Below are positions 40,475-41,385 of a stretch of DNA of 64,000 nucleotides, in pieces (the first letter of the stretch is position 1; each line of letters opens with the position of its first letter). The stretch is from the NCBI GenBank assembly GCA_963932905.1, contig CAWVRN010000001.1, forward strand, positions 384,001 to 448,000, in the 5' to 3' direction. The notes below the pieces were generated by a model. It worked only from the letters and a program-made list of their open reading frames with translations, searched no databases and had not been told where the DNA came from. The DNA is from an uncultured Bdellovibrio sp. GTDB lineage: Bacteria > Bdellovibrionota > Bdellovibrionia > Bdellovibrionales > Bdellovibrionaceae. The position numbers and the translations under genes were made by a program.

Positions 40475-40602
40475 GAATTTGTTTGGAATAAATAGAAAAT
40501 TTAAAAAATAGATTTGATTTTAATCAGGTCATCGAGCGTTCGACCATTGTCTAGCCTGGAATTTTTTACTACAATATTTCTAGTAAATTCCGAAAAAATC
40601 TT

Positions 40603-41385
40603 ATGCCAAGGAAAATTGGTTACTTTACAATCTTAAGTTTTTTTATGATTTGTTTAGATGCCGAATCAGCAGATAACTATAAAGTAAATGCTGCTGAATC
40701 AACTTGCTATAATACAATCAGGGCCATTAAGCACGGAATTTTCAGAAACGAGCGGGATCATATTATTCGTCATGTTCCCTATAATGGTCATGGAATCATT
40801 CTGGATTCTAATTTAATGATAGCATTAAAGGAGAAAGGGTTTGAACACCTTGGCGAATCGTCATGGCACGGACAACTAAAGAAAATGGTTAAAACGGCTA
40901 GCAAGCAAAAAAAGCAAAAATCAAATGTTCCTAGTTTATCTGATCCATTTAGGTTTTGGGTAAGCTCAAAAATAGGGCAAGAAGTCCAAGACGTTGTTAG
41001 AAGAAAAAAAATCTCCTTTGAATTTCCAGAGTCCACAAGAATTCTTCCTATAAACGAACATACAAAAGCAGAATATGATCAAGTTTACAATAAACTGCGA
41101 TCATTAAGTATTGGTGGCGATAAGGTACATGATAATGTGAATGATAGAGATATATTGACCGAGGTATTTTTTTCTAAAACAACGGATAACGTAACTCCTG
41201 TATTCGCGACTGCTGACAAGGGAATTATTAATCCACTATGTAAAACAATCCCCAATTGCGCAAGTGCGCTAAGACGAAATACCATGCGATCAGAATACCG
41301 CGACGGCTTTGATTTTACTATTCATGATGAATCAACTGGAATTTCCCGAACAGTTAGAATCTTGCCAATATATTTAGAAAAATGA
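40603..41385 (+). CDS. Signal-peptide-bearing PIN-domain nuclease-like protein
   Basis: IILDSN (D68), VSSKIGQE (E127), NDRDIL (D181), FATADKG (D205). Confidence 0.7.
   Translation: MPRKIGYFTILSFFMICLDAESADNYKVNAAESTCYNTIRAIKHGIFRNERDHIIRHVPYNGHGIILDSNLMIALKEKGFEHLGESSWHGQLKKMVKTASKQKKQKSNVPSLSDPFRFWVSSKIGQEVQDVVRRKKISFEFPESTRILPINEHTKAEYDQVYNKLRSLSIGGDKVHDNVNDRDILTEVFFSKTTDNVTPVFATADKGIINPLCKTIPNCASALRRNTMRSEYRDGFDFTIHDESTGISRTVRILPIYLEK

What the first reader, a model, noticed from the sequence alone, without database searches (positions are those of the whole stretch)
40570..41385. Stand-alone secreted PIN-domain nuclease with no immunity gene: candidate prey-directed RNase effector
Seen: a hydrophobic Sec-type N-terminus (MPRKIGYFTILSFFMICLDAESA), a short Cys-containing segment, then four acidic residues in PIN order (IILD68SN, E127, D181, FATAD205KG). 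The next ORF starts ~315 bp later and is itself secreted, and no antitoxin-like ORF is upstream. Established: PIN domains are Mg-dependent RNases, normally cytoplasmic VapC toxins paired with an antitoxin, or C-terminal tips of polymorphic toxins followed by an immunity gene. Inference: export removes the need for immunity, so in a predator this could be an RNase delivered into prey. A weak sigma28-like promoter (TACA-N16-CCGAAAA, 40570-40596) would fit attack-phase expression.
Basis: partly seen in the sequence, partly recalled or inferred. Interest (0 to 1): 0.8.

Follow-up and report, generated by a model that had tools for sequence, protein, structure and literature searches.

The report
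Exported PIN-fold nuclease, probable toxin/effector
A Bdellovibrio-like groundwater bacterium encodes a probably exported nuclease of the PIN type, from an unannotated family that elsewhere forms the killing tip of large bacterial toxins, a role PIN domains were thought not to play.

Summary
ORF 40603..41385 (+, 260 aa) has a Sec-type N-terminus, and D68, E127, D181 and T203-x-D205 are invariant or nearly so across 54 relatives.

Pfam, NCBIfam and a PDB profile search see nothing. A profile comparison with canonical VapC PINs is not significant. An alignment-based AlphaFold model (pLDDT 85.7) matches almost only PIN proteins (VIA top Z 9.6). The ESM Atlas's own model does too.

Of 28 standalone relatives, 25 have hydrophobic N-termini, and most keep three cysteines. 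Cys-less versions sit at the C-terminus of large toxin-like proteins. One is a myxobacterial lipoprotein whose N-module carries 13 unrelated tails in paralogs, the largest cluster being AHH nucleases.

The gene is not alone. It forms a ~2.9-kb accessory cassette with a divergent, secreted, Cys-rich 625-aa gene. The cassette is absent from two syntenic sister genomes and lies elsewhere in a third.

There is no immunity-like ORF. The sigma-28 motif alone is chance-level, though its position is conserved in the ortholog.

Verdict: exported PIN-fold toxin/effector. Target and delivery are untested.

The parts
40603..41385 (+). Coding sequence of the 260-aa exported PIN-fold protein (P0001), stop codon included.
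   Evidence: It is single-copy in its genome and has 54 relatives at E<=1e-3.
40603..40671 (+). Residues 1-23, a Sec-type signal-like N-terminus: MPRK, a 14-residue hydrophobic core, then DAESA.
   Evidence: Sequence. The Kyte-Doolittle 12-residue maximum is 2.22. Of 28 standalone relatives with 40 or more residues before the D68 column, 25 score 1.8 or higher. No SignalP-type tool was available, and the cleavage site is not predicted.
40672..40782 (+). Residues 24-60, a family-specific N-terminal extension with conserved C35 (40705-40707) and an HG motif. It lies outside the PIN core.
   Evidence: Alignment. The VIA matches span model residues 61-260 only. pLDDT here is 54-96 by 10-residue block.
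40783..41382 (+). Residues 61-260, the PIN-fold core. Key residues: D68 (40804-40806), E127 (40981-40983), D181 (41143-41145), T203/D205 (41209-41217) and the Cys pair C213/C219 (41239-41241, 41257-41259).
   Evidence: Model with pLDDT 85.7 and pTM 0.79. Fold matches. Residue conservation.
38597..40474 (-). Divergent partner gene of 625 aa (P0055). It has a signal-like N-terminus, 8 cysteines conserved with its ortholog, and a conserved block C336-x-LEAKYGKG...GGVT...GGA...RLA.
   Evidence: Its homolog sits adjacent and divergent to the PIN ortholog in G349 and was not found with this query in G280 and G400. Distant relatives with variable C-termini appear.
40475..40602 (.). A 128-bp divergent intergenic region. 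It holds an 18-nt block shared with G349 (40501-40518, TTAAAAAATAGATTTGAT) and the sigma-28-like TACA-N15-TCCGAAAA (40570-40596), which ends 6 nt before the ATG. There is no Shine-Dalgarno sequence.
38520..41490 (.). Approximate extent of the two-gene accessory cassette, about 2.9 kb. The left junction lies between 38516 and 38596, the right junction at about 41.44-41.50 kb.
   Evidence: Synteny with G280 (empty site, flanks about 244 bp apart) and G400. GC is 32-39% against a genome mean of 40.7%. No terminal repeats were found.
41500..41700 (+). Ancestral upstream region of the next gene (41701..43368). It is not part of the cassette.
   Evidence: It aligns with the empty-site intergenic DNA of G280.

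Best explanation
The gene encodes a Sec-exported metal-dependent nuclease with a PIN fold, probably stabilised by a disulfide. It belongs to an unannotated family that bacteria use as a toxin or effector domain.

Proposed steps:
1. The pre-protein crosses the inner membrane by its N-terminal signal, so the active fold only forms outside the producer's cytoplasm. Shown: a signal-like N-terminus and conserved cysteines across the family. Inferred: cleavage and disulfide formation.
2. The folded PIN core uses D68, E127, D181 and D205 to bind Mg2+ or Mn2+ and cut nucleic acid, most likely RNA. Shown: the fold and the conserved residues. Inferred: the activity and the substrate.
3. Because the producer's cytoplasm never sees folded enzyme, no cognate immunity gene is needed. 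Shown: none is present. Inferred: the reason.
4. The enzyme acts on another cell, either prey or a competitor. The co-inherited 625-aa secreted protein possibly helps delivery across the target's membrane. This step is inferred only.

My odds: PIN fold with an intact active site about 0.85; exported about 0.8; antagonistic role about 0.55-0.6; acting specifically in prey during predation about 0.35.
For: Fold.
- The AlphaFold2 model built on 26 relatives has mean pLDDT 85.7 and pTM 0.79. The 10-residue blocks that hold D68, E127, D181 and D205 average 96, 94, 96 and 96.
- In the VIA-align search of 48,161 chains, the top hit is 8wmm_G (Z 9.6, rmsd 3.1, 124 aligned). Of the top 20 rows, 14 are titled VapC, VapBC, FitAB or toxin-antitoxin complexes, and titled PIN domains follow at ranks 23, 25, 26 and 28.
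- The Foldseek top hits are the same proteins, with probabilities of 0.97-1.00 for ranks 1-7.
- The ESM Atlas's separate model has PIN-family clusters in 6 of 8 structure rows.

Active site. The conserved residues fall where Matelska et al. 2017 place PIN-like active sites (passages read):
- D68 lies right after strand 64-67.
- E127 lies in the helix after strand 117-120.
- D181 lies at the N-terminus of helix 179-189.
- D205 lies after strand 200-203.

Export. 25 of 28 standalone relatives have hydrophobic N-termini. C213 and C219 are both Cys in 35 of 54 members. They are lost in 19, which comprise large fused forms, short fragments and 4 standalone signal-bearing members.

Toxin use.
- The domain is the C-terminal tip of proteins of 525-1037 aa.
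- P0053's 350-aa N-module occurs in 53 of 56 loci, and 52 of the module-bearing ORFs have tails of 60 aa or more. These tails form 13 unrelated clusters, and the largest (12 members) is the AHH nuclease family PF14412 (E 3.5e-23).
- In the 2 of 56 loci that carry the PIN tip, a small co-directional ORF follows. One of these loci also lies next to an eCIS_core protein.

Accessory nature. The family is present in 7 of 401 genomes of the phylum. The cassette is an indel.
Against: - There is no sequence-level link to canonical PIN. Pfam and NCBIfam give no hit. Only 1 of 26 members has a weak PIN_4 hit, at E 0.12. The PDB profile search's best E is 0.29. hhalign against 13 VapC PINs gives probability 0.34% and E 0.17 over 17 columns.
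- No Foldseek hit reaches E<=1e-3. The VIA tool warns that a best Z of 7-8 is common for models without a true match.
- I could not inspect coordinates, so the clustering of the four acidic residues in 3D is inferred from secondary structure only.
- No signal-peptide predictor was run, so a signal-anchor is not excluded.
- The mature protein has three conserved cysteines, an odd number, and their pairing is unknown.
- The gene has no Shine-Dalgarno sequence, and no RNA data exist for it.
- The fused toxin forms are the Cys-less sub-group and match this protein only at E 1e-4 to 1e-3. Their toxin role therefore transfers to the standalone sub-group by homology, not directly.
- Nothing shows export beyond the periplasm or entry into another cell.
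Confidence: 0.58

Rival explanations
1. It is a digestive or scavenging nuclease. The exported PIN enzyme degrades RNA or DNA in the predator's periplasm, or in the invaded prey, to supply nucleotides. On this reading it is a nutrient-acquisition enzyme rather than a toxin that kills or disables.
For: The evidence for export and an active site is the same as for the main reading. No immunity gene is present. Named standalone relatives come from Bdellovibrio-like MAGs. That Bdellovibrio secretes nucleases to digest prey is recalled knowledge, not checked here.
Against: A core digestive enzyme should be widespread, but only 7 of 401 genomes of the phylum and 2 of 4 in the genus have it. It sits on an indel cassette. 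The two orthologs are only about 29% identical while the flanking genes are 84-97% identical. Relatives occupy the toxin-tip slot of polymorphic toxins.
Confidence: 0.2
2. It is a binary inter-bacterial competition toxin. The 625-aa partner would be a secreted delivery or translocation scaffold, and the PIN protein its separately encoded cargo. The pair would be used against competitors or non-kin rather than prey.
For: - The two genes are adjacent and divergent in both G000 and G349, at different genomic sites. Neither was found in G280 or G400 with the queries used.
- The partner belongs to a family with a conserved scaffold of about 450 aa and variable C-terminal extensions of about 140-530 aa.
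- Several fused PIN forms have Gly-rich hydrophobic segments before the tip, as the partner has (by eye).
- In myxobacteria the domain sits in a lipoprotein toxin family with the architecture described for SitA kin-discrimination toxins.
Against: - No binding evidence exists.
- The partner has no known family.
- Its link to the G400 protein is marginal: hhalign probability 9.8%, E 0.003.
- Partner-like proteins also occur without a PIN gene (G400, G280, G024, G286).
- The four more distant PIN loci of the phylum that I examined have no partner-like neighbour.
- A competition toxin without immunity would endanger siblings.
Confidence: 0.15
3. It is not an exported enzyme. Either the hydrophobic N-terminus is an uncleaved membrane anchor with the PIN domain facing the cytoplasm, or the domain is a catalytically dead RNA- or protein-binding module.
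For: No signal-peptide predictor was run. The c-region (DAESA) is not a textbook AxA site. There is no sequence similarity to active PINs. The gene has no Shine-Dalgarno sequence.
Against: The cysteines are lost in all seven fused forms whose N-termini are not hydrophobic, though four signal-bearing standalone members also lack the pair. This pattern fits an oxidising compartment. All four acidic positions are invariant or nearly so, which argues against a dead enzyme. A cytoplasm-facing active PIN with no antitoxin would be self-toxic.
Confidence: 0.07

Closest known systems
VapC toxins of type II toxin-antitoxin systems (PIN, Pfam PF01850)
   Same: They share the predicted fold: VIA Z 7.0-8.9 to ten or more VapC structures, with 112-130 residues aligned. 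They share the order and placement of the four acidic residues and the T-x-D motif. A global profile alignment pairs D68, E127, D181 and T203-x-D205 with D5, E41, D91 and T107-x-D109 of 13 VapC sequences, though its statistics are uncalibrated.
   Different: There is no detectable sequence homology. There is no VapB antitoxin gene. This protein also has a signal-like N-terminus, a 37-residue N-terminal extension, conserved cysteines and a C-terminal beta-hairpin. VapC toxins are cytoplasmic.
C-terminal nuclease domains of polymorphic toxins (Zhang et al. 2012, PMC3482391), including the SitA lipoprotein toxins of myxobacteria (PMC5562445, PMC8546572)
   Same: Relatives of this domain occupy the variable C-terminal slot of large proteins. 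One is a myxobacterial lipoprotein with a multi-copy N-module of about 350 aa, and paralogs of it carry AHH nuclease and 12 other tail types. Small ORFs follow the tip in 2 of 2 tip loci examined.
   Different: This protein is standalone, has its own Sec signal, has no downstream ORF and keeps cysteines that the fused forms lack. [quoted passage not shown] The word PIN does not occur in the two SitA papers. I could not compare P0053's N-module with reference SitA sequences.
PcrIIC1, the Cas9-associated protein (PDB 8wmm chain G)
   Same: It is the best structural match: Z 9.6, rmsd 3.1, 124 of 134 residues aligned. Foldseek gives E 5.7e-3 and probability 0.99.
   Different: Sequence identity is 14%. 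There is no CRISPR context here, and PcrIIC1 is cytoplasmic. The match reflects the shared fold only.

Membership tests
PIN domain-like superfamily (fold level; Matelska et al. 2017) | A three-layer alpha/beta/alpha fold with a parallel beta-sheet in the order S1-H-H-S2-H-S3-H-S4-H-S5. | tested here: met
   The model (pLDDT 85.7) has strands at 64-67, 117-120, 145-147, 200-203 and 236-241, with helices between them. The structural neighbours are almost all PIN proteins. This rests on a predicted model, not a solved structure.
PIN domain-like superfamily (fold level; Matelska et al. 2017) | [quoted passage not shown] | tested here: met
   D68, E127, D181 and D205 sit at those secondary-structure positions and are conserved. 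Their clustering in 3D could not be inspected.
PIN domain-like superfamily (fold level; Matelska et al. 2017) | Metal-dependent nuclease activity. | not testable with these tools
   This needs a biochemical assay.
Pfam PIN (PF01850) / VapC toxin of a VapBC module | A match to the family profile. | tested here: not met
   No Pfam hit at E<=1 to any PIN family for this protein. hhalign against 13 PF01850 members gives probability 0.34%.
Pfam PIN (PF01850) / VapC toxin of a VapBC module | An adjacent small antitoxin gene (VapB), usually upstream and co-transcribed. | tested here: not met
   The upstream neighbour is a divergent 625-aa gene. No small ORF lies on either side.
Polymorphic toxin C-terminal domain | The same domain is found at the C-terminus of multidomain proteins whose N-terminal modules also carry other, unrelated tips. 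| tested here: met
   This holds for relatives, not for this protein itself. Examples are P0047, P0052, P0053, P0054 and the L081 and L088 proteins. P0053's N-module carries 13 unrelated tail clusters, including AHH nuclease.
Polymorphic toxin C-terminal domain | A cognate immunity gene immediately downstream. | tested here: not met
   For this gene, no ORF of 20 aa or more lies in the 315-bp spacer, of which about 200 bp is ancestral intergenic DNA. For the fused relatives, small ORFs follow in 2 of 2 loci. These two ORFs are unrelated to each other and unproven as immunity genes.
Sec (type I) signal peptide protein | A positively charged n-region, a hydrophobic h-region of 10-15 residues, and a polar c-region with a small-x-small cleavage site. 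| tested here: inconclusive
   The n-region (MPRK) and h-region are present, and the family-wide hydrophobicity count is 25 of 28. The c-region DAESA is atypical at position -3. No dedicated predictor was available.
SitA outer-membrane-exchange toxins (applies to relative P0053 only) | A lipobox, a family-defining escort domain of about 375 aa, a polymorphic nuclease tip, and occurrence in myxobacteria. | tested here: inconclusive
   The lipobox-like LVGC, the multi-copy N-module of about 350 aa in Archangium, Cystobacter, Myxococcus and Corallococcus, and the variable tails all fit (family description). No reference SitA sequence was compared.

The most novel reading that the evidence does not exclude
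The cassette is a two-component exported toxin of a bacterial predator. The fast-evolving 625-aa Cys-rich scaffold protein would insert into the target cell's envelope through its conserved Gly-rich hydrophobic block and carry the separately encoded, disulfide-locked PIN RNase into the prey cytoplasm. No immunity gene would be needed, because the enzyme only folds outside the producer. This would be the first PIN-fold effector delivered between cells, and a split version of the fused PIN-tipped toxins of myxobacteria and cyanobacteria.
Probability: 0.2. Interest if true: 0.85.

Novelty: new variant of a known kind. Interest (0 to 1): 0.62.

Why it matters
PIN nucleases are the most abundant toxins of toxin-antitoxin modules. 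The reference survey of polymorphic toxins, however, stated that they are not used as secreted or delivered toxins (Zhang et al. 2012, passages read). The comprehensive PIN classification never mentions secreted, periplasmic or polymorphic forms.

This family would fill that gap. The same PIN-fold domain appears in two forms:
- as a Sec-exported, cysteine-bearing standalone protein in Bdellovibrio-like bacteria;
- as the interchangeable toxic tip of large toxins in myxobacteria, cyanobacteria and Chloroflexota.

It gives three things:
- a new toxin domain to add to toxin catalogues;
- a natural example of an immunity-free toxin design based on export before folding;
- a testable candidate effector, with a co-inherited partner, in a group of predators whose effectors are poorly known.

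My literature searches found no description of such a family. Subscription papers and the list of 40 SitA toxin domains (Vassallo and Wall 2019, not in the library) could not be checked.

Tried and rejected
- Single-sequence AlphaFold gave pLDDT 33.9 and was useless.
- The word-indexed homolog search found only one relative. The 'longer' search with alignment A1 found none, which the tool itself rates as weak evidence.
The single protein P0053 worked.
- PADLOC gave no meaningful hit.
- The partner is not related to the N-termini of the fused forms P0049 and P0051, nor to the downstream 555-aa gene.
- The partner has no relatives in the 5.8-billion-protein search and no Atlas lead: best score 0.86, TM 0.27 or less.
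- Homologs of the two candidate immunity ORFs from L081 and L088 were not found in this genome with those queries.
- A 'leaderless sigma-28 gene class' is rejected. The spacing histogram of CCGAWAW-Nd-ATG shows no peak at d=6, with 9 sites against 0-29 at other spacings and a period-3 artefact.
- Terminal repeats or target-site duplications at the cassette ends: none convincing.
- No intrinsic terminator follows the gene on the + strand.
- Expression: no RNA holder is listed among the 14 runs (groundwater and biofilm metagenomes).
- My 54-member HMM wrongly absorbed the N-terminal columns of the long proteins. Its hits at model positions 540-870 are N-module hits, not PIN hits, and are read as such.
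- Earlier notes of this scan hold nothing on this protein.
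Full report
**1. What is in the sequence**

The ORF 40603..41385 (+) encodes 260 aa. ATG 40603 is the first start in a 276-codon open frame. The next in-frame Met is residue 15, which would remove the hydrophobic N-terminus.

The next gene starts at 41701. No ORF of 20 aa or more lies on the + strand in between. 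The upstream neighbour (38597..40474, - strand, 625 aa) is divergent, so there is no VapB-like gene on either side.

**2. Family**

Pfam and NCBIfam give nothing for this protein. The word-indexed search found one relative, at 33% identity. Exhaustive phmmer against 1.84 billion cluster representatives found 54 proteins at E<=1e-3, of which 23 are at <=1e-10 and 6 at <=1e-30.

A 26-member alignment has invariant D68, E127, G171, D181, T203 and D205. Near-invariant columns are P199, F201, C213, C219, G235, F236 and P255. Over all 54 members:
- G171, D181 and D205 are kept in 54 of 54.
- T203 is kept in 53 of 54.
- D68 is kept in 45 of the 45 that cover the column.
- E127 is E in 46, K in 3 and a gap in 5. 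Some of these look like alignment slips by eye.

That is far beyond chance.

**3. Fold**

The single-sequence model failed, with pLDDT 33.9. With the alignment, the model reaches pLDDT 85.7 and pTM 0.79. The 10-residue blocks around the four acidic residues average 94-96.

- VIA-align, run against 48,161 chains without a Foldseek pre-filter, lists 8wmm_G at the top (Z 9.6, rmsd 3.1, 124 aligned). Nine VapC or toxin-antitoxin chains follow at Z 7.9-8.9.
- In that list, 14 of the top 20 rows are titled VapC, VapBC, FitAB or toxin-antitoxin. Explicitly titled PIN domains follow, among them Utp24, Utp23, SSO1118 and AF0591.
- Foldseek lists the same proteins, with probabilities up to 1.00. Its best E is 1.5e-3, and no hit reaches 1e-3.
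- The ESM Atlas's own model of this protein has PIN-family clusters in 6 of 8 structure rows, with TM by target 0.56-0.69 over residues 61-258. All four of its nearest named feature clusters are PIN families.

Against this, there is no sequence-level support:
- The PDB profile search's best E is 0.29.
- Only 1 of 26 members has a PIN_4 hit, at E 0.12.
- hhalign of the family against 13 canonical PF01850 proteins from the same phylum gives probability 0.34% and E 0.17 over 17 columns.
- A global, uncalibrated profile alignment does put D68, E127, D181 and T203-x-D205 on the VapC positions D5, E41, D91 and T107-x-D109.

Matelska et al. [quoted passage not shown] The model's secondary structure puts the four residues exactly there.

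I rate 'PIN fold with an intact active site' at about 0.85. I could not inspect the coordinates.

**4. Export**

No signal-peptide predictor was available. I used a hydrophobicity count instead. Among the 28 standalone relatives shorter than 300 aa with at least 40 residues before the D68 column, 25 have a Kyte-Doolittle 12-residue maximum of 1.8 or more within the first 40 residues. The exceptions are P0006 (1.48, signal-like by eye), P0013 (1.03) and P0022 (0.38).

Three cysteines (C35, C213, C219) are conserved in these forms. C213 and C219 are both Cys in 35 of 54 members. The 19 without the pair comprise large fused forms, short fragments and four standalone signal-bearing members (P0032, P0038, P0040, P0046).

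Cysteines retained mainly in signal-bearing forms fit folding in an oxidising compartment. The N-terminus is not a lipobox (by eye).

**5. Use as a toxin domain**

Nine of the 54 relatives are longer than 300 aa. In eight of them the domain ends within 10 residues of the C-terminus; in P0041 (310 aa) about 40 residues follow it:
- P0047 is 553 aa and carries DUF6861. It is named from Anthocerotibacter panamensis.
- P0052 is 1037 aa.
- P0054 is 843 aa.
- P0053 is a 525-aa lipoprotein of Melittangium boletus.
- P0049, P0051, P0039, P0041 and P0042 are the others.

Searching genomes with P0053 gave 56 loci.
- Its N-terminal module of about 350 aa is present in 53 of them. It is multi-copy in Archangium, Cystobacter, Myxococcus, Corallococcus, Pyxidicoccus and Vitiosangium.
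- The PIN tip is present in only 2: L081, an Anaerolineales MAG, and L088, Aliterella atlantica.
- The 52 module-bearing ORFs with a tail of 60 aa or more have tails that form 13 mutually unrelated clusters, of sizes 12, 9, 8, 6, 3, 3, 3, 2, 2, 1, 1, 1 and 1.
- The largest cluster is the AHH nuclease PF14412, at E 3.5e-23.

This is the defining architecture of polymorphic toxins, and the PIN domain sits in the toxin slot. The architecture also fits what the SitA papers describe: lipoproteins with a family-specific escort domain of about 375 aa and modular nuclease tips (passages read). I did not compare reference SitA sequences, so that label is an inference.

In both PIN-tip loci a small co-directional ORF follows: 153 aa after a 6-bp gap in L081, and 201 aa after a 98-bp gap in L088. 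The L081 gene also lies beside an eCIS_core (PF13699) protein. The two small ORFs are unrelated to each other, as cognate immunity genes often are. Neither was found in this genome with those queries.

Zhang et al. [quoted passage not shown] The word PIN does not occur in:
- the two SitA papers;
- the eCIS toxin paper;
- the toxin-discovery preprint.

My searches found no report of a secreted or polymorphic PIN toxin. The domain tables of Vassallo and Wall 2019 were not in the library.

**6. Genomic context: an accessory two-gene cassette**

The family profile hits 7 of 401 genomes of the phylum and 2 of 4 genomes of the genus.

- In G349 the PIN ortholog (about 29% identical) lies next to, and divergent from, a homolog of the 625-aa gene (31-32% identical). 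Among ORFs of 90 aa or more within 5 kb of the PIN gene, no other is shared with the window.
- G280 and G400 are co-linear with the window from about 31 to 51 kb, with flank proteins 84-97% identical, but they lack both genes.
- In G280 the flanking genes are about 244 bp apart. That DNA aligns with window positions of about 41500-41700. So about 200 of the 315 bases after the PIN gene are the ancestral upstream region of the next gene, not a hiding place for an immunity gene.
- The cassette is about 2.9 kb, with GC of 32-39% against a genome mean of 40.7%. It has no terminal repeats.

The downstream 555-aa gene is present in all three sister genomes and lies elsewhere in G349. It is therefore not linked to the cassette.

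**7. The partner**

P0055 has a signal-like N-terminus, 8 cysteines conserved with its ortholog, and a strongly conserved block at residues 336-383: C-x-LEAKYGKG…GGVT…GGA…RLA. It has no Pfam, NCBIfam, PADLOC or Atlas match, and no relatives in the large protein search.

At the same site and in the same orientation, G400 carries an 800-aa ORF with a similar block. BLASTP gives E 0.002. hhalign gives probability 9.8% and E 0.003 over 359 co-linear columns, with seven aligned cysteines.

A profile of the partner also hits the central block of ORFs of 710-984 aa in G024, G280 and G286. A six-way alignment keeps C49, C111, C336, Y342, G345, G359, C412 and C449, while the C-terminal extensions differ. 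Two of these extensions contain HExxH motifs by eye, and none has a Pfam hit.

The partner therefore belongs to a fast-diverging family of secreted proteins with a constant scaffold and variable ends. Whether it binds or delivers the PIN protein is open. Partner-like genes also exist without PIN, and the four more distant PIN loci that I examined have no partner-like neighbour.

**8. Promoter and translation signals**

With N16 it is 120 against 88. It carries no weight by itself.

The ortholog in G349 has TAAA-N15-TCCGATAT, and in both species the octamer ends exactly 6 nt before the ATG. That is unlikely by chance, by my rough estimate on the order of 1e-3.

Two flagellin genes of this genome have similar elements (TCAA-N15-CCCGATAT and TAAG-N15-TCCGAACT). 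These lie about 100 nt upstream, with strong GGAGG ribosome-binding sites. The PIN gene has no such site in either species.

A transcript from this element would start at or near the AUG, making it leaderless. No genome-wide class with that spacing exists. An 18-nt block (40501-40518) is also shared by the two intergenic regions.

I put a functional sigma-28-type promoter at about 0.35. No RNA run is listed (see Tried and rejected).

**9. Verdict**

Most likely this is an exported, disulfide-containing PIN-fold nuclease of a new family that bacteria use as a toxin or effector domain. Here it is carried on a small accessory cassette together with a secreted scaffold-like protein. The absence of immunity is real, and export before folding explains it plausibly.

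The substrate, the compartment reached, the target organism and the partner's role are all inferred. The family differs from VapC, because membership features were tested and not met. It also differs from classical polymorphic toxin tips, because this member is standalone, carries a Sec signal and lacks an immunity gene.

I class it as a new variant of a known kind, with interest about 0.6.

Noticed in passing
L018 9591..11993 (+) = G400:C41, at the site syntenic to window 38.5-41.5 kb: G400 has one 800-aa secreted ORF where G000 has the cassette. Its first ~410 residues align weakly but co-linearly with the partner, with seven cysteines aligned. Its ~390-aa C-terminal part has no known family. 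G280 has nothing at this site, so the site is variable.
   Followed up: partly
L097 2837..5551 (+), L098 2544..4676 (+), L096 1675..4629 (-): Large proteins (904, 710 and 984 aa) in other genomes of the family share the partner's central Cys/YG-x-G/Gly-rich block and have different C-terminal extensions. Two extensions show HExxH motifs by eye (HEAQH, HEFEH), which suggests metalloprotease-like ends. None has a Pfam hit.
   Followed up: partly
window 41701..43368 (+): The downstream 555-aa signal-bearing coiled-coil protein diverges much faster than its neighbours. It is 38-63% identical to its G280 and G400 homologs, while the other long flanking proteins are 84-97% identical. The 117-aa ORF 37901..38254 is likewise only 37-50% identical.
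   Followed up: no
window 40501-40518 and L009 ~6655-6675: An 18-nt block (TTAAAAAATAGATTTGAT, or its A variant) is shared by the divergent intergenic regions of the G000 and G349 cassettes, although the rest of the spacer has diverged. It is a possible operator or promoter element. In G349 it overlaps the -35 and spacer of the sigma-28-like motif; in G000 it lies about 50 nt further upstream.
   Followed up: partly
window 40585-40602; L009 6680-6695: Neither PIN ortholog has a Shine-Dalgarno sequence, whereas all 8 flagellin genes of this genome have GGAGG. This would fit a leaderless mRNA or a non-SD start.
   Followed up: partly
whole genome G000: No canonical PF01850 PIN/VapC gene was found in this 98.6%-complete genome (0 hits at E<=0.01), while 41 of 151 sampled genomes of the phylum have at least one. 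The exported PIN-fold protein is the only PIN-like gene detected here.
   Followed up: partly
L081 1434..3521 (+): Next to the PIN-tipped gene and its small downstream ORF in the Anaerolineales MAG lies a 695-aa protein. It has an eCIS_core (former DUF4157) domain (E 2e-32) and a weak C-terminal hit to the ATLF metalloprotease family (E 0.003). The locus looks like a toxin island.
   Followed up: no
G349:C12:85707-86429 (L009 6696..7433): One public record of the G349 ortholog's cluster is annotated as 182 aa instead of 245 aa. That corresponds to an internal start that removes the signal-like N-terminus. Such annotation would hide the exported nature of these proteins.
   Followed up: no
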